A DNA stretch of 64,000 nt, taken from UHGV virus genome UHGV-0248979; one strand, 5' to 3'. The notes under the pieces are model-generated. The model was not told the origin of the DNA. It was given only the letters and a program-made list of their open reading frames with translations, and ran no database searches. The translations under genes and the position numbers were made by a program. The DNA comes from a virus. How positions within the stretch are numbered: position 1 is the first letter of the stretch; the number at the start of each line of letters is the position of its first letter. Positions 2,398 through 37,838 of the stretch are shown piece after piece.

Positions 2398-2423
2398 CTC
2401 TCACCTAAGTAATATATATCTGA
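2398..2423 (-). promoter_or_regulatory. conserved promoter-like motif, copy 1 (candidate phage early promoter)
   Basis: Plus-strand CTCTCACCTAAGTAATATATATCTGA; on coding strand TCAGATATATATTACTTAGGTGAGAG, 48 nt upstream of start at 2349. Confidence 0.45.
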
Positions 2424-22749: not shown

Positions 22750-25044
22750 TTACTTACCGGCAGCAGCTTTGCCTTCGCCAGCAACGTTACCTGCTACACC
22801 ACCTTCGGTTTGTTTCTGACCGTTCTGTTCAACAGAAACATTGTAAGCCAGTTTTTCTTCAACCAGTTTGGTGATGCCTTTAACCCAGATCAGACCAGTG
22901 ATCGGGCAGTGGCAGATGTGCGCGTTACGCGGCTGTACGGCCAGCTCTTTAGAGGTAGAGCCGTTACGCTGAATGTTGATGTTAGTAACCATGATCGGAG
23001 ACCAGAAGTGGTTACCCCAGTTCAGCACGTTGTAGGAACCATCGTCCGCAGTCGGAACTTTCAGGAACCATTGCAGACGACGAGTCCAGGAACCGTCAGC
23101 TGCGTTGTAGATACGCCAGCGGTCATCGTTGGTGGTGATCACTTCGTATTCGTAGCGATCGCCCAGCAGACGTTGGTCGCCCTGTACCAGCAGCAGCATG
23201 GATGCAGTCGGTTCGTCGGTTGCAATAACAACCTTCGGCAGAATGTCCGGATCAGCAGTGTACAGACGCAGCGCAGGAATGAAGCGAGATTCCTGGATAG
23301 CCTGAGTTACCTGATTACCGATACGCTGTACCAGACCCTGACGAGCGTTGATCAGTGCTTCTTTGGTATCCAGGGACTGTACAACTTTATCAACGTTGTA
23401 GTCAGACTCTTTGAACCACGGAGCAACCCAGTGACGGCCCAGACCACGAATGGCCGGTTTGTCCCACGGAGTGATCATGCTTGCAGCAGCGTTACGTACC
23501 GCTTCGGTGTAAGACAGTGTCTGAGTGATAGCCAACTGTTCGTTACGGATGTTAACTGCGGAAATCAGGTCGTCCAGACGCTCGGTATCGTCGTATTCAA
23601 CGCCAACCGGAGACTTGGTCAGAATCGGAGAACCGTATTGCAGCTTGTAGTTTTCTTGTTCCCAGATTGGGTCGAGCAGCAGACCCTGGGTACGACGGTT
23701 TTCGTTGGTACGAGTACCATCGAAACGCCAGCCGATCAGTTCAAGTTTCAGATTTTCCAGGACAGCTTTGCCGGTACCAGTCTTAATATCAACTTTGTTA
23801 CCGGTAGCGTCGTACAGACCTTCGATTTCCAGTTTGTGACCAGCGATGTCAACTTTACCACCGAACTGACCGGTAGTGAACAGAGACATGTTGATGGTGA
23901 TCACATAACGCAGGGTGTAGGAGTTCTGTTCCAGTGTTTTCAGAGCCGGAATAGCTTCGCCTTTCCAGTCGGTAGTTTTCGCGTTCAGAGAGAACGCAGT
24001 ACGACGGAATTGCAGTACCAGCTCACGGCCATCACCTTCAGCAGGGCGCTGGAAGGTTGCGAACTGCATGTCGCGAACGTGCAGTTTAATGAATTTACCT
24101 GCTTTTGCATCTTCAGCCGCTTTACGTACGGAAATCAGCAGGCTGCCCAGAGCACAGCCCGGCGCGATTTCATCAGTTTCGTCGTAACCTTCGATTACGA
24201 TACCCGGATGCGCGGACAGCTGGAACAGGTTCAGAGTGTCTTTAGCAAAGCTCAGGTAGTTAGTCGGGTACGGAGGTACACGACCCAGACGAACAGATTC
24301 GTTCGGTACCAGATCTTCGCTTACGAAGTATTCAGCGTTTTCACCGGTTTCCATTACGTAAGGAACGATGTTGATCGCTTCGTCCTGGAGAACAGTGTGG
24401 TCAGTCAGCGCTTCATGTAAGTTACGACGATGATCTTCAACAACGTCTTTGCTCAGCAGTGCGTTCATTACACCGCGAGAAACGGTGGTCACTTTGGTAC
24501 GTACGGTAATACCAACATCGTTAGTGTCAACAGTGATGGTCGGGAACAGAGTCTCAGCAAAACGAGACTGGGTTTCCAGAGCACGTACGTTCAGCGTCCA
24601 GGTCAGACCCAGGTTTTTGTCGTAGTCTTTGTTGGTGTAGTATTCCTGAGCGACAACCATACGCTCTTTGCCCCAGTCGCCGTTACCAGCTTGGGAGCCA
24701 GGAATCGCAACGTCCAGGTTAAAACGGCTATGGAATTCCGGTTTAGCGTATTCTTGAGCTACTTTTTCTTGCAGGTCCATACCGTGACCAGCAGCACCCA
24801 GAATCATTGCAGAAGCAACTTCCGCAGCGTGGGACATTTTCTTACCGCCAGCAAACGCGTTTGCGTAGTGCTGTGCAGCGTCGTCACGCAGGGTACCAAA
24901 AACTTTAGTGTTGCTACGTACAGATTCACCAGCAACGATGGTGTTCCACATTTCGCCAGCAGTGTTGTTACTAATGACGCTTTGTACCAGCGAGTTACCA
25001 GCTTGTACGAGTTTCTCCAGATTAGAGATTCGGGTATCTTTCAT
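22750..25044 (-). CDS. major capsid protein candidate
   Basis: 764-aa ORF, in the size range recalled for jumbo-phage capsid proteins; codon usage visibly host-optimised, unlike neighbours; strong terminator downstream; N-terminal region has repeated A-Q-E motifs. No direct homology check. Confidence 0.45.
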   Translation of the reverse strand: MKDTRISNLEKLVQAGNSLVQSVISNNTAGEMWNTIVAGESVRSNTKVFGTLRDDAAQHYANAFAGGKKMSHAAEVASAMILGAAGHGMDLQEKVAQEYAKPEFHSRFNLDVAIPGSQAGNGDWGKERMVVAQEYYTNKDYDKNLGLTWTLNVRALETQSRFAETLFPTITVDTNDVGITVRTKVTTVSRGVMNALLSKDVVEDHRRNLHEALTDHTVLQDEAINIVPYVMETGENAEYFVSEDLVPNESVRLGRVPPYPTNYLSFAKDTLNLFQLSAHPGIVIEGYDETDEIAPGCALGSLLISVRKAAEDAKAGKFIKLHVRDMQFATFQRPAEGDGRELVLQFRRTAFSLNAKTTDWKGEAIPALKTLEQNSYTLRYVITINMSLFTTGQFGGKVDIAGHKLEIEGLYDATGNKVDIKTGTGKAVLENLKLELIGWRFDGTRTNENRRTQGLLLDPIWEQENYKLQYGSPILTKSPVGVEYDDTERLDDLISAVNIRNEQLAITQTLSYTEAVRNAAASMITPWDKPAIRGLGRHWVAPWFKESDYNVDKVVQSLDTKEALINARQGLVQRIGNQVTQAIQESRFIPALRLYTADPDILPKVVIATDEPTASMLLLVQGDQRLLGDRYEYEVITTNDDRWRIYNAADGSWTRRLQWFLKVPTADDGSYNVLNWGNHFWSPIMVTNINIQRNGSTSKELAVQPRNAHICHCPITGLIWVKGITKLVEEKLAYNVSVEQNGQKQTEGGVAGNVAGEGKAAAGK

Positions 25045-25594: not shown

Positions 25595-27157
25595 ATGAAT
25601 AACAAAATGATGTTGATAACCGCCTTAGCCACATTATACGCTGAAAGTCTTCTGACCGATCCTGAAAAGGACCACGACATCATAAGAAAAGTGCTGTTAG
25701 AGGCTAAGCTTCCTGATTACGCAGAGGAAGGTGACGAACGTGCCGCCCTCGTCGAAATCAAGGATATCATCACATCCATCATAGACGGCGGTATGCCTTA
25801 CGACCACACAAACGTCATGAAACGTTTGAAACTGGCCACTACGCAAATACGTCCTCTATACGATACGATTACCAAATTCCTGGAAGATGATATTCCAGAA
25901 GAACCAGAAGCACGCATCGAGCATCTTAATCGCCAAGTAGCACAATACTACTTTCAGTTACGTCAAGCTATTCAAGGCGTACAACTGAAACAAAAATTGG
26001 GTCGTACGTTAGGCGCACTGAACGGTACCGAAACGCGCGTTGATTTACAAACGGCGCTCAACGACCTTAAGGATACCTTATCCACGTTCAGTGAACGCTC
26101 TCATAATAAGATTCCTTCTCTGGTAGGGGAATTGATTACTGATAATAAAGCACCTTTCGTGCACGTTTTCGACTCTATCAGTAAGAAAGCGGCAGGGAAC
26201 GGGTTGCGTACAGGCTGGAAAGCAATTAACCAGATGCTCGGTTGTAACAAAGGGATCACCGAAGAACTCTGGCTGATGCCTGCTCTCCCCTTTAACTGTA
26301 AGTCATTATTCAGTTTATTGCTCTCTATTAGCATTCCTGTTTTCAACACCCCAGAAAAAGTGATGGCGAATGTTAAAGGTGATCTACAACCGGTTATTCT
26401 AGATTTAAGTTTAGAAAACGAATTGGATGTTAACTTGGCTTACGCGTATCAGGCACTTTACGGACACTTTGAAGGTACAGCCCCGGTGATGGTTGCGCCA
26501 GAAACCGCAACTGACGAAGAAAAAGCGTCACATAATGCACAAATGTCAGACTACCTCTGTAGTAAGATGCGGGCGAACGGTTGGGAGTATATTTTCCAAA
26601 AACACACAAACTCCGATTTTAAAATTCACTATTTGAACGATTTGATTTTAGATTTAAAACGTCGAGGTTATCATGTAGCTGGAATACGCGGAGACTATTT
26701 CGGTACTATCAGCAAAGCAGGGCACGGTAACGGCATTGCGGGTAGCGACATTAAAGAAATTTATCGTATCGCACGAAACATCCAAGTGGTACGTAATCGT
26801 GGTTTCCTGTTAGCACCACACCAAATCTCACCAGAAGGCAAAAAATTAAAAGCACTCGACCCAGCAAGTTTCTGTAAGAACTTACCTGGTCGTGGTCTTT
26901 ACGACAACTGCTCTAGCTTAGACAACGAAGCTGACGGTGAGATGTATTTTAACAAACGTGTCGTCAACGGTCACAGCTATTTAGAAGTACAACGCGGTAA
27001 ACACCGTACCATTATCGATACCAAAGAAGCTTATCATTATACTGTAATACCTTTCCGTGATGTTGGCATTTTGCCATGGGATTGTGATAAAGAAGAAACT
27101 GTAACAGCCTCGTCGATTAACGTATTTACCGGCGGCATGGGTGACGAACTCTTTTGA
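25595..27157 (+). CDS. hypothetical protein
   Basis: 520-aa ORF; ATG at 25595 with AAGGA SD; isolated plus-strand gene followed by hairpins. Confidence 0.5.
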   Translation: MNNKMMLITALATLYAESLLTDPEKDHDIIRKVLLEAKLPDYAEEGDERAALVEIKDIITSIIDGGMPYDHTNVMKRLKLATTQIRPLYDTITKFLEDDIPEEPEARIEHLNRQVAQYYFQLRQAIQGVQLKQKLGRTLGALNGTETRVDLQTALNDLKDTLSTFSERSHNKIPSLVGELITDNKAPFVHVFDSISKKAAGNGLRTGWKAINQMLGCNKGITEELWLMPALPFNCKSLFSLLLSISIPVFNTPEKVMANVKGDLQPVILDLSLENELDVNLAYAYQALYGHFEGTAPVMVAPETATDEEKASHNAQMSDYLCSKMRANGWEYIFQKHTNSDFKIHYLNDLILDLKRRGYHVAGIRGDYFGTISKAGHGNGIAGSDIKEIYRIARNIQVVRNRGFLLAPHQISPEGKKLKALDPASFCKNLPGRGLYDNCSSLDNEADGEMYFNKRVVNGHSYLEVQRGKHRTIIDTKEAYHYTVIPFRDVGILPWDCDKEETVTASSINVFTGGMGDELF

Positions 27158-27261
27158 GTCTGGGGAGCTTCGGCTCCCCCTATAACCCCTTATGCGTCTC
27201 GAAAAGCAAAAAAAAACAGAAGGCTATTAATTATGAACGGAAAACAACTACCGAACTAAGT

Positions 27262-27290
27262 AGGGGGTGTTGCTACCACCCCCTTTATTA
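27262..27290 (+). terminator. hairpin plus T-run (H3-type)
   Basis: GGGGGTG-TTGCTAC-CACCCCC followed by TTTATT; ~105 nt downstream of the plus gene stop and abutting small ORF copy 1 stop. Confidence 0.5.
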
Positions 27291-27299
27291 GTTAGTAAC

Positions 27300-27461
27300 T
27301 TATCTCCTTAGAGGTGGTTGCTGAACATTGTGGTTGTTAACCGTTTTCGGTGCCGCAACGAGGCCGAGACGAACATATTCGTCCATGCGTTGGTTAAACT
27401 GAATTTGTTTTTCACGATTTCGCATCGCGGTATTGAACATCTGTATTTGATATTCGTTCAT
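27300..27461 (-). CDS. small protein, copy 1 of a tandem paralogue family (53 aa)
   Basis: Below ORF-track size cutoff. MNEYQIQMFNTAMRNREKQIQFNQRMDEYVRLGLVAAPKTVNNHNVQQPPLRR; AAAGG SD upstream; H3-type hairpin right after the stop. Confidence 0.4.
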   Translation of the reverse strand: MNEYQIQMFNTAMRNREKQIQFNQRMDEYVRLGLVAAPKTVNNHNVQQPPLRR

Positions 27462-27520
27462 TTTTCATTACCTTTCGTAATGTTGTAAAAACGTCAACAA
27501 CTTTATGTGTTGACACCGTA

Positions 27521-27610
27521 CAGCAGAGACTGGCGGAACAGCCTCTGCTGCTTTAACTTCTCTTTCGAAAAGTTAAAGCTATGAAAAGGGGTGGTGGTGC
27601 ACCCCTTTTT
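27521..27610. repeat. three-hairpin module, copy A (candidate structured RNA / regulatory element)
   Basis: H1 27521-27550 (CAGCAGAG...CTCTGCTG), H2 27550-27579 (GCTTTAACTT-loop CTCTTTCGAA-AAGTTAAAGC), H3 27584-27609 (AAAAGGGGTG...CACCCCTTTT). Confidence 0.45.
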
Positions 27611-27685
27611 ATTATACCTACGACCACCATCTCGGCAGGTTACTGTACGAGGAGGAGAGGCGTGTCAGCGCCTCTCCTTTATTTG

Positions 27686-27859
27686 TTAGTAGTGTTCACT
27701 CCTCTTTTCGGTGAATATCTGCGTGAAACGGTTGGTAGACGGTTTTAACCGTTTATCCATGCCGAGCTGACTATACTTGTAGATACGTTGCTGTAAATTG
27801 GTCTTTGCTGCACTCTGTTCTGCAAGCATTTTGTCAGTAAAGTAGTAACCATTGTTCAT
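27686..27859 (-). CDS. small protein, copy 2 of tandem paralogue family (57 aa)
   Basis: MNNGYYFTDKMLAEQSAAKTNLQQRIYKYSQLGMDKRLKPSTNRFTQIFTEKRSEHY; AAGAGGG SD upstream; hairpin 27654-27677 right after stop; shares C-terminal consensus with copy 3. Confidence 0.45.
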   Translation of the reverse strand: MNNGYYFTDKMLAEQSAAKTNLQQRIYKYSQLGMDKRLKPSTNRFTQIFTEKRSEHY

Positions 27860-27949
27860 GGTAGGCCCTCTTTGTAGGGTGATTAAAGAAATCCACTACG
27901 GAAACGTAATGGTGTTGTAAAGGGGTGTGACAGCACCCCTTTATTTTAT

Positions 27950-28120
27950 TTAGTAGTTACTTCTCCTTTCGGTGAAGATTTGTACTCGAGGATTATTAGA
28001 AGGTTTAAGCCTTTTATTTAATCCTAGCTGTTGAACTTCTCTTAATCGTTCATTAAACCTCGCTTGTTCTGCATAGCTGTTTGAAATAGAAGTAAAGATA
28101 CGTGAATTGTTGTTAGTCAT
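27950..28120 (-). CDS. small protein, copy 3 of tandem paralogue family (56 aa)
   Basis: MTNNNSRIFTSISNSYAEQARFNERLREVQQLGLNKRLKPSNNPRVQIFTERRSNY; GAGG SD upstream; hairpin 27919-27942 right after stop. Confidence 0.45.
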   Translation of the reverse strand: MTNNNSRIFTSISNSYAEQARFNERLREVQQLGLNKRLKPSNNPRVQIFTERRSNY

Positions 28121-28175
28121 GTTAAAACCTCACACGAGTTGGGGATTAAGCTATTACGTGACTGTAATAGCGACA

Positions 28176-28264
28176 AGTAGGGACTGCTGGTACAGCCCCT
28201 ACTGCTTTATCTTCTCTTTCGAAAAGATAAAGCGCCTAAGGGGAGTGCGCCAACACACCCCTTT
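28176..28264. repeat. three-hairpin module, copy B
   Basis: H1 28176-28203 (AGTAGGG...CCCTACT, loop ACTGCTGGTACAGC), H2 28204-28233 (GCTTTATCTT-same loop-AAGATAAAGC), H3 28238-28264; same order and spacing as copy A with compensatory stem changes. Confidence 0.45.
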
Positions 28265-28270
28265 AGGTTG

Positions 28271-28321
28271 TTACCTTCTTTCAACTATCAACTGGATGTT
28301 TCTTGGGTATGCAACCTTGGG
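28271..28321 (-). pseudogene. decayed fourth copy of the small-protein family (C-terminal remnant)
   Basis: Minus frame ending at stop 28271-28273 reads ...PKVAYPRNIQLIVERR, matching the family C-terminus (PRVQIFTERR); no in-frame start, upstream frames disrupted; stop abuts an H3-type hairpin. Confidence 0.3.
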
Positions 28322-28449
28322 CTACGTTAACGTTGGTCGCGGTATTGCACTAACCCTTCGCTGAAACTCAAGTTGTTTTGTTGACAACTCGTTTAACCGT
28401 CGAAACAGCAGTTCATGTTTCGTGAACTCATCTCCTATGTCGAATTTGC

Positions 28450-28493
28450 GAAAATAAATAAAGTGTACCCCTAATCCCGAAAAGGATTAGGGG
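28450..28493 (-). terminator. intrinsic terminator
   Basis: CCCCTAATCC-CGAAAA-GGATTAGGGG preceded by A-rich run; immediately downstream of stop at 28500. Confidence 0.6.
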
Positions 28494-28499
28494 TTGCTT

Positions 28500-29369: not shown

Positions 29370-29513
29370 TTAACCACGACCAGTGCACTGTGCAACGGAA
29401 TTACCGTTGTCGATGCAAGTGTCGTAGCCTTTGTCGATATCCAGGTACAGGCAACCCAGAACAACAGCGATAACAACAGCGAAGATAGCTTTTTTGTGTT
29501 TTACAGAAATCAT
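29370..29513 (-). CDS. small lipoprotein (47 aa precursor)
   Basis: Below track cutoff. MISVKHKKAIFAVVIAVVLGCLYLDIDKGYDTCIDNGNSVAQCTGRG: signal peptide with lipobox VLGC; AGGAG SD 8 nt upstream; terminator downstream; conserved promoter-like motif upstream. Confidence 0.5.
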   Translation of the reverse strand: MISVKHKKAIFAVVIAVVLGCLYLDIDKGYDTCIDNGNSVAQCTGRG

Positions 29514-29558: not shown

Positions 29559-29584
29559 CTCTCACCTAGGTAATATATATCTGA
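29559..29584 (-). promoter_or_regulatory. conserved promoter-like motif, copy 2
   Basis: Plus-strand CTCTCACCTAGGTAATATATATCTGA, 45 nt upstream of the lipoprotein start (29513). Confidence 0.45.
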
Positions 29585-37814: not shown

Positions 37815-37838
37815 CCCACCTAGGTAATATATATCTGA
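37815..37838 (-). promoter_or_regulatory. conserved promoter-like motif, copy 3
   Basis: Plus-strand CCCACCTAGGTAATATATATCTGA, 51 nt upstream of ATG 37763; flanking CAAGTCG / TAAAGAG / ATTGTA blocks shared with copy 1. Confidence 0.45.

What the first reader, a model, noticed from the sequence alone, without database searches (positions are those of the whole stretch)
27158..28499. Tandem array of ~55-aa paralogous ORFs in the only long non-coding-looking region
Between convergent genes lie three intact minus-strand ORFs (27300-27461, 27686-27859, 27950-28120), each with its own SD and a GC-rich hairpin immediately after the stop, plus a decayed fourth copy (28271-28321). They share a C-terminal consensus roughly QLG-x-x-KRLKPS-x-N-x-x-x-QIFTE-x-RS-x-Y. 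None is in the ORF track (below size cutoff). Tandem small paralogues with one decaying copy is the pattern of fast-evolving accessory loci such as anti-defence or host-takeover genes.
Basis: partly seen in the sequence, partly recalled or inferred. Interest (0 to 1): 0.8.

Follow-up and report, generated by a model that had tools for sequence, protein, structure and literature searches.

The report
Variable small-protein gene array, jumbo phage
Between the helicase gene and an essential-type gene of an E. coli/Shigella giant (nucleus-forming type) phage lies a real, copy-number-variable row of tiny genes for very basic 50-60-residue proteins of unknown function, each with its own folded RNA leader; it is a genuine accessory locus, but what it does is still unknown.

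Summary
Window 27158-28499 carries three intact minus-strand ORFs (53, 57 and 56 aa), each with an SD and a GC hairpin after the stop. It also holds a decayed fourth copy, larger than reported (28271-28423: ATG->ACG plus an in-frame TAG), and a 3' stub of a fifth subtype (27618-27653).

The ORFs are true genes. Orthologue pairs give dN/dS of 0.05-0.34, with changes concentrated at third codon positions.

They belong to an orphan family of basic helix-plus-tail proteins (pI 9.8-11.7, net +4 to +7). The family occurs only in SPN3US-like jumbo phages, always at this locus, in 0-4 copies, and is annotated only as "hypothetical". Its SPN3US-type branch is phrog_18219, of unknown function.

Near-identical phages (helicase dS 0.03) carry different cassette sets, with chimeras and stubs. 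The locus therefore turns over by recombination between paralogous cassettes, not by fast amino-acid change.

A conserved 58-nt double hairpin precedes most cassettes. It shows strong covariation, and within the 64-kb window it occurs only in the array.

No homology, fold or literature evidence gives a function. Anti-defence or host takeover is plausible but untested. I favour accessory nucleic-acid- or machinery-binding peptides.

Verdict: new member of a known kind; moderate interest.

The parts
28467..28494 (-). Terminator hairpin of the upstream 271-aa (SPN3US gp70-like, Zn-ribbon) gene. It is followed by the T-rich TTTATTTATTTTCGC that leads into the first cassette.
   Evidence: The loop TTTTCG is exactly inverted (CGAAAA) in relatives L006, L008, L012, L027 and L041.
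28271..28423 (-). D-type cassette, a pseudogene in this window. The start codon is ACG (28421-28423) behind an intact SD AGGAGA. There is an in-frame TAG at 28322-28324.
   Evidence: tblastn with the intact 52-aa L027 protein: 84% identity over aa 2-50, E=1e-24. Family HMM E=2e-6. Alignment. Sister contigs L042-L045 share ACG but have CAG instead of TAG.
28240..28261 (-). GC hairpin after the D cassette.
   Evidence: Folding. The whole hairpin is flipped relative to the L005 group.
28176..28233 (-). Double-hairpin module, copy 1, upstream of ORF3. It is a 13-bp A/U-rich stem with a GAAA loop (28204-28233) directly followed by an 11-bp GC stem (28176-28203).
   Evidence: the repeat finder D1, I10. 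Covariation count. CM R1 83.4 bits. Fold z=-8.2.
28150..28171 (-). Further leader hairpin (GCTATTAC/GTAATAGC) between the module and the SD of ORF3.
27950..28120 (-). ORF3 = C-type small protein, 56 aa, pI 11.3, net +6.
   Evidence: 96%, 82% and 73% identical homologues. dN/dS 0.05-0.34. The exact sequence occurs on 101 contigs. AF2 gives a helix at 2-34 and a disordered tail.
27922..27939 (-). GC hairpin after ORF3. In this window the double-hairpin module that follows it in relatives has been deleted.
   Evidence: About 66 nt are deleted relative to L005-L013 and L025, between short CCTT repeats.
27686..27859 (-). ORF2 = B-type small protein, 57 aa, pI 9.8, net +5.
   Evidence: dN/dS 0.13-0.15 against the L005 group. 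The exact sequence occurs on 221 contigs and is named 'hypothetical protein [Shigella flexneri]'.
27654..27677 (-). GC hairpin after ORF2.
27618..27653 (-). Remnant (last 11 codons plus stop) of an E-type cassette. The full 61-aa gene is present in L014 and L024.
   Evidence: tblastn aa 51-61, 91% identity. Alignment.
27588..27605 (-). GC hairpin belonging to the E-type remnant.
27522..27579 (-). Double-hairpin module, copy 2, upstream of ORF1. It is followed by two more leader hairpins, the last of which presents the SD in its loop.
   Evidence: the repeat finder D1, I8, I14. Covariation count. CM R1 80.7 bits. Fold z=-10.0.
27300..27461 (-). ORF1 = A-type small protein, 53 aa, pI 10.4, net +4.
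   Evidence: dN/dS 0.12-0.13 against L027. The exact sequence occurs on 138 contigs. Close variants are annotated as hypothetical proteins in E. coli and Salmonella assemblies.
27263..27283 (-). GC hairpin after ORF1. On the + strand it is followed by a T-rich run.
   Evidence: Flipped relative to L005.
27190..27216 (.). Conserved T9 tract plus GACGCATAA element between the array and the hairpin at the helicase 3' end. It marks the boundary of the locus but is not part of the cassettes.
   Evidence: Conserved in all clades, including phages with no small ORFs (L028, L033).

Best explanation
The region is a tandem array of self-contained gene cassettes. They encode an orphan family of very small, strongly basic proteins.

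**The proteins.** They are 47-61 aa, with a long N-terminal amphipathic helix carrying a conserved F/Y-x-Q/E-R-h-x-E-h core. A proline-containing linker follows. The C-terminal motif is short, hydrophobic-plus-basic and poorly ordered: QIFTERR in the window clade, KGLGG[DE]IIFNKR in SPN3US-type phages.

**The cassette.** Each has a structured leader (in most cassettes beginning with the conserved double hairpin), an SD, the ORF and a 3' GC hairpin.

**Distribution.** The family is confined to SPN3US-like giant phages (relatives of nucleus-forming phages). It always sits between the gp70-like gene and the convergent DnaB-like helicase gene.

**Evolution.** The locus is dispensable: some genera have none. 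It changes by unequal or illegitimate recombination between paralogous cassettes, at the shared 5' module and the shared 3' ends. This produces copy-number changes, chimeras, stubs and pseudogenes, while the retained proteins stay under purifying selection.

**Shown:** coding status, family membership, synteny, accessory and variable nature, recombination footprints, and a conserved, covarying hairpin module.

**Inferred:**
- The peptides act stoichiometrically by binding nucleic acid or a nucleic-acid-handling machine of the host (or phage) during infection. Different subtypes would provide different or redundant specificities.
- The double hairpin is a 5' regulatory or stabilising RNA element of the cassette transcript.
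For: **Coding.**
- dN/dS is 0.05-0.34 and third-position changes dominate in all four intact subtypes.
- Amino-acid-level conservation holds across genera with no detectable nucleotide similarity (versus 30, 31).
- hhalign of the window clade against the SPN3US type gives 87.6% probability, E=3.5e-6.

**Synteny.** The family sits at the same position and in the same orientation in SPN3US (2 copies), pEa_SNUABM_29 (1), Machina-like phages (1) and L034 (1). Erskinevirus and several other relatives have none.

**Restricted family.** All significant, interpretable hits come from ~220-250 kb phage contigs or are short fragments of the same proteins, both among the 64 hits in 5.8 billion clusters and the 14 in 1.84 billion representatives. 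The weakest entries look like mis-called ORFs or a Q-rich 1186-aa chance match.

**Variability at near-zero flank divergence.** Window vs L024 has helicase dS 0.03, but the arrays are D*-C-B-(E stub)-A vs E-A. Other arrays are L025 (C stub)-B-(E stub)-A, L027 D-C-A, the L005 group D(frameshift)-C-B and L014 C-E-(A stub).

**Chimeric proteins.** Examples are P0019 (D/E) and P0007/P0009 (B start fused to A).

**The window haplotype is real.** It occurs on at least 24 long contigs.

**Protein properties.**
- AF2 gives a helix at 2-34 (block pLDDT 82-93) with a disordered tail.
- The SPN3US type gives a helix plus a low-confidence beta-hairpin.
- pI is 9.8-11.7 and net charge +4 to +7.

**Hairpin module.**
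- 24 pairs are 99.2% paired, and 9 pairs have compensatory changes (0/500 shuffles reach this).
- G-U pairs are almost all on the ORF-sense strand.
- Folds give z=-8 to -10 on the sense strand and -6.6 to -7.4 on the antisense strand.
- Within the 64-kb window the module occurs only in the array.
- The same architecture is present in other genera.
- The GC-stem sequence travels with the downstream ORF subtype.
Against: - There is no direct evidence of transcription, translation or any activity.
- No promoter could be identified. The probable early-promoter motif is absent from the array, and sigma-70-like matches are at chance level.
- The hairpins after the stop codons mostly lack a downstream U-tract and look at least as good as + strand terminators. 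The transcript boundaries are therefore uncertain.
- Nucleic-acid binding is inferred only from charge and peptide architecture.
- The module is missing before some intact ORFs: window ORF2, the D cassette and the second SPN3US gene. It is therefore not strictly required.
- The G-U strand asymmetry rests largely on one invariant U-G pair, which could simply be inherited.
Confidence: 0.55

Rival explanations
1. The peptides would be anti-defence or host-takeover effectors that bind and block a host protein. Array diversity would reflect an arms race with variable host defence repertoires.
For: - Presence/absence and subtype polymorphism occur between near-identical phages.
- The locus is dispensable in whole genera.
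- A probable early-promoter motif lies about 1.1 kb upstream in the same orientation, at 29563-29583. The array could therefore be the distal end of an early unit.
- A 2026 review notes that small uncharacterised jumbo-phage ORFs are prime candidates for undiscovered anti-defence genes (PMC13282480).
Against: - There is no similarity to any known anti-defence or defence-associated family.
- There is no signature of positive selection; dN/dS is at most 0.34.
- Two terminator-like hairpins separate the early motif from the array.
- The strongly basic composition is atypical of the acidic DNA-mimic inhibitors (own knowledge).
Confidence: 0.25
2. The peptide and the RNA module would form a cognate pair. 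The basic helix/hairpin peptide binds the double hairpin in its own leader, or in other phage RNAs. It would autoregulate translation or mRNA stability, or modulate read-through of the many intercistronic hairpins. This would work like lambda N/boxB, HK022 put RNA or T4 RegA-type control.
For: - The module and the ORF family co-occur across genera, and within the 64-kb window the module lies only in the array.
- The module directly follows an intrinsic-terminator-like hairpin and has a GNRA-type loop in many copies.
- The peptides have the charge and architecture of arginine-rich RNA-binding peptides.
- In the ORF1 leader the SD is presented in a hairpin loop.
Against: - Loop sequences are not conserved (GAAA, GAAAA, CAAA, CGAA, GCAAA, ATTGC) and are even inverted between relatives.
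- C and E proteins are about 15% identical yet share the same GC stem, so protein and hairpin do not co-vary.
- Some intact ORFs lack the module.
Confidence: 0.12
3. The peptides would be small basic proteins packaged with, or coating, the phage DNA. They would serve for charge neutralisation or be injected with the genome, analogous to the polymorphic internal-protein (IP) locus of T-even phages.
For: - The proteins are very basic and tiny.
- The locus is polymorphic and lies next to head and replication genes (major capsid protein at 22750-25044, helicase).
- SPN3US-type heads are known to package a large mass of ejection proteins (PMC7411985 abstract).
Against: - There is no family-wide prohead-protease site of the S/A/G-x-E type. 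G-G-E occurs only in some SPN3US-type members and is G-G-D in the others.
- No conserved capsid-targeting N-terminus is evident.
- gp71/gp72 do not appear in the searchable SPN3US texts. The virion tables in supplements were not checked.
- Whole genera lack the genes.
Confidence: 0.05
4. The ORFs would be incidental. The functional elements would be non-coding: an array of structured RNAs, terminators or REP-like palindromes, or a replication-origin-like region next to the helicase gene.
For: - Hairpin density is extreme, with five consecutive hairpins per spacer and z down to -10.
- Hairpin loops flip between relatives, as expected for DNA palindromes.
- The position is adjacent to the helicase gene.
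- A conserved T9+GACGCATAA element persists even where there are no ORFs.
Against: - Purifying selection acts on the reading frames, with third-position bias.
- The protein sequence is conserved across genera where the DNA is not.
- SD sequences are correctly spaced.
- There is no Rfam match.
- Structured elements and coding cassettes coexist, so this explains the spacers but not the ORFs.
Confidence: 0.03

Closest known systems
SPN3US gp71/gp72-type hypothetical proteins (RefSeq ACQ60_gp194/gp195; PHROG phrog_18219, function unknown)
   Same: - Same locus, between the gp70-like gene and the convergent helicase gene, and same orientation.
- Same size and charge.
- Shared helix core F/Y-x-Q-R-h-x-E-h.
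- Same upstream A/U hairpin plus GC hairpin.
- Tandem duplication in SPN3US.

   Different: - The window subtypes A-E do not hit phrog_18219 directly.
- The C-terminal motif differs: QIFTERR, QQPPLRR or NLPSWWS instead of KGLGGDIIFNKR.
- The window clade has five subtypes and up to four cassettes, with longer multi-hairpin leaders.
Hypervariable small-gene loci of large lytic phages, e.g. the T-even internal-protein (IP) locus, and phage 'morons' (own knowledge)
   Same: - Tandem small genes that differ between close relatives.
- Each is a compact unit with its own flanking signals.
- Conserved flanking sequence acts as the substrate for recombination.
- The genes are dispensable.
   Different: - No capsid-targeting sequence or protease site was found.
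- No promoter was identified.
- Here the cassettes are all paralogues of one family rather than unrelated genes.
Anti-CRISPR / anti-defence gene clusters (own knowledge)
   Same: Small proteins in variable tandem clusters in phage genomes, without recognisable domains.
   Different: - No associated HTH (aca-like) regulator; the neighbours are a Zn-ribbon protein and a helicase.
- Members are paralogous, basic and under purifying selection.
- No activity is shown.
Arginine-rich peptide / RNA hairpin pairs such as lambda N-boxB, and cis-acting double-hairpin antiterminator RNAs such as HK022 put (own knowledge)
   Same: - A basic helical peptide.
- A conserved pair of adjacent hairpins, one often with a GNRA-type loop.
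- The hairpins sit next to terminator-like hairpins in a multi-terminator region.
   Different: - The loops are not conserved and invert freely.
- Peptide subtype and hairpin do not co-vary.
- The polymerase here would be a phage multisubunit RNAP.
- No functional data exist.

Membership tests
phrog_18219 (SPN3US gp71/gp72-type, unknown function) | Direct match of the protein to the family HMM | tested here: not met
   The three window ORFs give no PHROG hit at E<=0.1. 18 of the 31 aligned family members (count and best E=2.7e-30 only; member identities were not listed) do match.
phrog_18219 (SPN3US gp71/gp72-type, unknown function) | Remote homology plus conserved genomic position | tested here: met
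   - A joint profile retrieves both groups.
- hhalign gives 87.6% probability, E=3.5e-6 over the helix.
- Both have the same flanking genes, orientation and upstream double hairpin.
Protein-coding gene (as opposed to a chance ORF) | Purifying selection on the frame; indels kept in frame; SD present | tested here: met
   - dN/dS is 0.05-0.34, with third-position excess, in subtypes A, B, C and E.
- SDs are present.
- Only subtype D shows disrupting changes, and it is intact in L027 and L041.
Anti-CRISPR / anti-defence locus | Demonstrated inhibition of a defence system | not testable with these tools
   This needs plaque or EOP assays. There are no sequence matches to defence-related models.
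Anti-CRISPR / anti-defence locus | Adjacent HTH regulator (aca-like) or a known anti-defence neighbour | tested here: not met
   The neighbours are a divergent DnaB-like helicase and a Zn-ribbon protein homologous to the essential SPN3US gp70.
Phage moron (autonomous transcription unit) | Own terminator and own promoter | tested here: inconclusive
   Each ORF is followed by a GC hairpin, but mostly without a U-tract. No promoter was identifiable: sigma-70-like matches are at chance level, and the early motif is absent from the array.
Integron-type cassette array | Adjacent integrase, and attC-like imperfect hairpins with extrahelical bases | tested here: not met
   Neither flanking gene is a recombinase. 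The stems are essentially perfect, at 99.2% paired. The junctions look like paralogue-to-paralogue crossovers and microhomology deletions.
T-even-like internal proteins / jumbo-phage packaged proteins | Conserved N-terminal targeting sequence and a prohead-protease site (S/A/G-x-E in phiKZ-type phages, PMC13282480) | tested here: not met
   There is no family-wide S/A/G-x-E site. GGE occurs in some SPN3US-type members and GGD in the rest, and the window subtypes have none.
Known RNA family (Rfam), for the double hairpin | Covariance-model match at or near the gathering score | tested here: not met
   There are no gathering-level hits in the window. Only sub-threshold chance-level hits occur, at E 0.3-0.9.

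The most novel reading that the evidence does not exclude
The conserved double hairpin and the basic helix/beta-hairpin peptide may form a self-contained RNA-peptide control device. It would be specific to phages that transcribe with their own split multisubunit RNA polymerases. For example, it could be a peptide-dependent switch of terminator read-through, mRNA stability or mRNA handling in the nucleus-forming life style. The cassettes would diversify as interchangeable modules.

A related unexcluded twist concerns size. These 5-7 kDa single-helix peptides may be small enough to pass the chimallin lattice passively and act on nucleic acid inside the phage nucleus.
Probability: 0.1. Interest if true: 0.75.

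Novelty: new member of a known kind. Interest (0 to 1): 0.4.

Why it matters
Giant nucleus-forming phages are full of tiny unannotated genes, and only one anti-defence protein has been described in them so far (PMC13282480).

This locus offers a well-defined, experimentally tractable set of such genes.
- It has a clear family definition and natural knock-outs. Whole genera lack the family, and some copies are pseudogenes.
- It provides natural allelic series: five subtypes and several chimeras.
- SPN3US is a genetically workable model phage that carries two copies.

The locus also shows how accessory loci in these phages turn over, by paralogue recombination at conserved hairpin modules. It contributes a conserved, covarying RNA element that current RNA libraries do not contain.

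On its own, without a function, it remains an orphan family in a variable region, which is common in large phages.

Tried and rejected
**Similarity searches of the region**
- Megablast and blastn of the region against 50,697 phage records matched only the helicase 3' end.
- tblastn of ORF3 against the phage records found nothing.

**Protein family and structure searches**
- Pfam, PHROGs, NCBIfam and PADLOC gave nothing on the window ORFs.
- A PDB profile search gave only chance hits at E>=0.9.
- Foldseek of the AF2 model against PDB gave no hits, as expected for a single helix.

**RNA and signal searches**
- Rfam at gathering and E-value thresholds, and a tRNA scan, found nothing meaningful.
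- A sigma-70 promoter scan was at chance level.
- I tested the A/U hairpin as a general promoter or terminator motif of the phage and rejected the idea. By pattern and by covariance model it occurs only in the array.

**Literature**
- Searches for SPN3US gp71/gp72 found nothing relevant. The one gp71 hit concerns phiKZ gp71.
- The SPN3US infection-proteome paper (PMC6384053) is not held.

**Ideas considered and rejected**
- A second long ORF-free gap at 49.7-50.3 kb was an artefact of my greedy gene picking; a 455-aa ORF covers it.
- Beta-clamp-binding or SSB-tail-like motifs in the C-terminus did not fit the consensus (own knowledge, not a tool test).
Full report
**Context**

The window comes from a giant phage of the phiKZ-like, nucleus-forming type.
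- The + strand gene at 25595-27157 is a divergent DnaB-like helicase (PF20307, E=1e-125; phrog_3213).
- A PhiKZ-type major capsid protein gene lies next to it.
- The helicase is 84-85% identical to those of Erwinia phages phiEaH2 and Asesino and of Salmonella phage SPN3US.
- No phage in the 50,697-record collection is closer than that. The 1.3-kb region of the finding has no nucleotide match there beyond the helicase 3' end.
- Near-identical ~220-227 kb contigs are common in metagenomes and in assemblies labelled E. coli, Shigella flexneri and Salmonella enterica.
- One of these is a 221,873-bp circular 'plasmid' of a urinary E. coli isolate.

**The observation**

- Each has an SD-like sequence and a GC hairpin 10-15 nt after its stop.
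- ORF3 and ORF2 are 42% identical (E=1e-13). ORF3 and ORF1 are 34% identical over 41 residues (E=2e-5).

The 'decayed fourth copy' is real but larger than stated.
- The whole of 28271-28423 is a pseudogene of a fourth subtype (D). Its intact 52-aa form, MKHEQLFQRLNELSVKQLEFQRRVSEIAQPTLTQPKVAYPRNTQLIVERRSN, exists in relatives L027 and L041.
- In the window the start codon is ACG and there is an in-frame TAG.
- Four independent contigs with the same array share the ACG but still read CAG at the TAG position. Decay was therefore stepwise.
- In the L005 group the same gene carries a 16-nt frameshifting deletion.

The last 11 codons of a fifth subtype (E, 61 aa when intact) survive at 27618-27653.

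A family HMM finds no further members elsewhere in the 64-kb window.

**Are they genes?**

ORF length proves nothing here, because an 85-aa ORF on the opposite strand is longer than any of them. Conservation decides the matter.
- Divergent orthologue pairs give dN/dS of 0.12-0.13 for subtype A, 0.13-0.15 for B, 0.05-0.34 for C and 0.09-0.11 for E.
- Differences at codon positions 1/2/3 run as 5/2/15, 5/2/10, 3/0/8 and 1/1/12.
- A profile of the family retrieves homologues in other genera where the DNA is no longer alignable.
- A profile-profile comparison of the window clade with the SPN3US type gives 87.6% probability, E=3.5e-6, over the N-terminal helix.

It is not met for A, B, C and E. It is met only for D in some lineages.

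**The family**
- The big-database searches return only hypothetical proteins. These were 5.8 billion clusters with 64 hits and an exhaustive HMMER scan of 1.84 billion representatives with 14 hits. All significant, interpretable hits come from ~220-250 kb phage contigs or are fragments of the same proteins.
- The homologues include SPN3US ACQ60_gp194/gp195 (gp72/gp71 by position), pEa_SNUABM_29_00087 and proteins of Machina and Parshik.
- 18 of 31 aligned members match phrog_18219, which has no annotation. The window subtypes do not match it directly.
- The family always sits between the gp70-like gene and the convergent helicase gene. SPN3US gp70 is an essential non-virion protein (PMC5105663).
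- Copy number is 0 in Erskinevirus and several other relatives, 1 in pEa_SNUABM_29 and Machina-like phages, 2 in SPN3US and 2-4 in the E. coli clade.
- Members are 5.4-7.1 kDa, with pI 9.8-11.7, net charge +4 to +7 and 8-26% Gln+Asn.
- AlphaFold2 predicts one long helix (residues 2-34, block pLDDT 82-93) and a disordered tail for ORF3. For the SPN3US type it predicts a helix plus a low-confidence C-terminal beta-hairpin around KGLGGDII.
- Pfam, NCBIfam, PADLOC, a PDB profile search and Foldseek all gave nothing.

**How the locus evolves**

Cassette content differs between phages that are otherwise almost identical:

| Source | Array, gp70-like side to helicase side |
|---|---|
| window | D(pseudogene)-C-B-(E stub)-A |
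| L024 | E-A |
| L025 | (C stub)-B-(E stub)-A |
| L027 | D-C-A |
| L041 | D-A |
| L005 group | D(frameshifted)-C-B |
| L014 group | C-E-(A stub) |

- Window vs L024 has helicase dS of only 0.03. Window vs L005 has helicase dS 0.09, against 0.27-0.40 in the shared cassettes. Cassette alleles therefore have older or separate histories than their flanks.
- The junctions lie in sequence shared by the paralogues:
  - the 5' double hairpin;
  - the start region (a B start fused to the A leader gives 79-83-aa extended proteins P0007, P0009 and P0012);
  - the conserved 3' end (...ACTAAC.AATAAAGG...);
  - the RSN/YSN codons (the D/E chimera P0019).
- In the window a ~66-nt deletion between CCTT microrepeats removed the module in front of ORF2.
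- Unequal and illegitimate recombination within a paralogous tandem array is enough to explain all of this. Nothing suggests a dedicated recombinase.
- At the protein level the genes are not fast-evolving. Subtype A (dN 0.08) is more conserved than the neighbouring gp70-like gene (dN 0.21) over the same divergence.

**The spacers**

Each inter-ORF spacer folds into about five consecutive hairpins. The z-score is -8.2 and -10.0 on the ORF-sense strand and -6.6 and -7.4 on the other strand.

The most conserved part is a 58-nt module, found at 28176-28233 and 27522-27579. It has two stems:
- a 13-bp A/U-rich stem, usually closed by C-GAAA-G, whose 5' arm is the T-rich run that follows the preceding GC hairpin;
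- directly after it, an 11-bp GC stem with a 6-nt loop.

Over 15 distinct copies the covariation is strong.
- The 24 pairs are 99.2% paired.
- Nine pairs carry compensatory double changes, seven of them in the GC stem. None of 500 shuffles or six slid controls comes close.
- By my count from the per-pair table, G-U pairs fall on the ORF-sense strand in 23 cells against 1.

The same two-hairpin architecture, with different stem sequences, precedes the first small ORF in SPN3US, pEa_SNUABM_29, Machina-like phages and L034.

A covariance model finds the module at only those two sites in the 64-kb window (pattern search). It is therefore not the phage's generic promoter or terminator.

The GC-stem sequence goes with the downstream ORF subtype: AGAGAC with A, GGTACGC with B, AGGGAC with C and E. 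I therefore assign the module to the 5' side of the cassette.

Whether it is a promoter-proximal element, a 5' stabilising stem-loop, a processing site or a binding site cannot be decided without transcript mapping. Three things limit any reading:
- No promoter was recognisable.
- A 21-nt motif CAGATATATATTACYTAGGTG occurs three times in the window and is probably the early virion-RNAP promoter. I base this on the description of AT-rich early promoter motifs in PMC7598289. It is not in the array, but one copy lies about 1.1 kb upstream in the same orientation.
- Most post-ORF hairpins lack a U-tract on the sense strand and score as + strand terminators.

**Interpretation**

Shown:
- The region is a real, accessory, recombination-driven tandem array of paralogous small-protein genes.
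- It carries a conserved structured leader module.
- It is specific to SPN3US-like giant phages.

Inferred:
- The peptides act as stoichiometric binders. Their uniform strong positive charge and helix-plus-tail (or beta-hairpin) architecture fit nucleic acid, or a nucleic-acid-handling machine, better than the acidic mimic-type inhibitors.
- Whether the target is host (takeover or anti-defence) or phage (regulation, possibly through the module itself) is open.
- The loop variability, the free inversion of loops, and the lack of co-variation between peptide subtype and hairpin all weigh against a strict peptide-hairpin recognition pair.

**Novelty and score**

The homologues are already in public records as hypothetical proteins, and part of the family is an unannotated PHROG. 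Variable clusters of small genes are a familiar feature of large lytic phages.

The new points are:
- the definition of the family across genera, including five divergent subtypes;
- the demonstration of purifying selection;
- the cassette-turnover picture;
- the conserved double-hairpin module.

I rate this a new member of a known kind, with moderate interest at 0.4. The locus is tractable and could yield a new class of jumbo-phage effector or RNA control element, but nothing found here is surprising in kind.

Noticed in passing
window 28478-28483, 27533-27538, 27263-27283, 28240-28261 (and the homologous hairpins in L005-L027, L041): Hairpin 'flip-flop'. Between close relatives the loops of the GC hairpins are exact reverse complements of one another. 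The pairs are TTTTCG/CGAAAA, TTCCGC/GCGGAA, TTGTAG/CTACAA, GTGCTA/TAGCAC and CCTATA/TATAGG. Two whole terminator hairpins are also inverted. This suggests frequent palindrome-mediated inversion or template switching at the DNA level, neutral for stem stability.
   Followed up: partly
window 27190-27216 (T9 at 27208-27216, GACGCATAA at 27190-27198): A T9 tract plus G(G)ACGCATAA element lies between the array and the helicase-end hairpin. It is conserved in all related genera, including phages with no small ORFs (L028, L033). On the + strand it reads TTATGCGTC, which contains the phiKZ late-promoter core TATG. An A9 run follows, then about 70 nt later a + strand terminator-like hairpin (27262-27284). 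It could mark a short + strand RNA or a binding site.
   Followed up: partly
window 2402-2422, 29563-29583, 37817-37837 (all minus strand): The 21-nt motif CAGATATATATTACYTAGGTG occurs three times, all intergenic (0 expected by chance). It is probably the AT-rich early (virion RNA polymerase) promoter of this phage. One copy heads the unit that runs through a 47-aa ORF and the 271-aa gene towards the array.
   Followed up: partly
window 29370-29513 (minus): An unlisted 47-aa ORF (MISVKHKKAIFAVVIAVVLGCLYLDIDKGYDTCIDNGNSVAQCTGRG) lies directly downstream of the probable early promoter. It has a hydrophobic, membrane-type N-terminal segment and three Cys. It is called as a gene in all related contigs.
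   Followed up: no
L041 = NZ_CP173450.1 (E. coli strain 98232, urine, Egypt), 221,873 bp circular 'plasmid'; also accessions: This giant-phage type is assembled as a circular replicon in a complete E. coli genome. Its small proteins are annotated in E. coli, Shigella flexneri and several Salmonella enterica serovar assemblies. This suggests carriage in isolates (carrier state or pseudolysogeny, or contamination) and a broad enterobacterial host range. No cultured phage in the 2025 phage collection is closer than about 85% (helicase).
   Followed up: partly
L027 5369-5479 region; proteins P0007, P0009, P0012, P0019, P0006, P0051: Recombinant chimeric ORFs occur in relatives. A B-type start is fused in frame through the A leader to A, giving 79-83 aa. 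A D/E fusion reads ...QLIVERRSNLPSWWS. Other variants have replaced C-termini. The leader of one cassette can therefore be read as protein in another context.
   Followed up: partly
window 25581/25595: The divergent 174-aa gene and the helicase gene start only 13 nt apart. Their promoters must therefore lie inside coding sequence. This is consistent with the minimal late promoters described for phiKZ-type phages.
   Followed up: no
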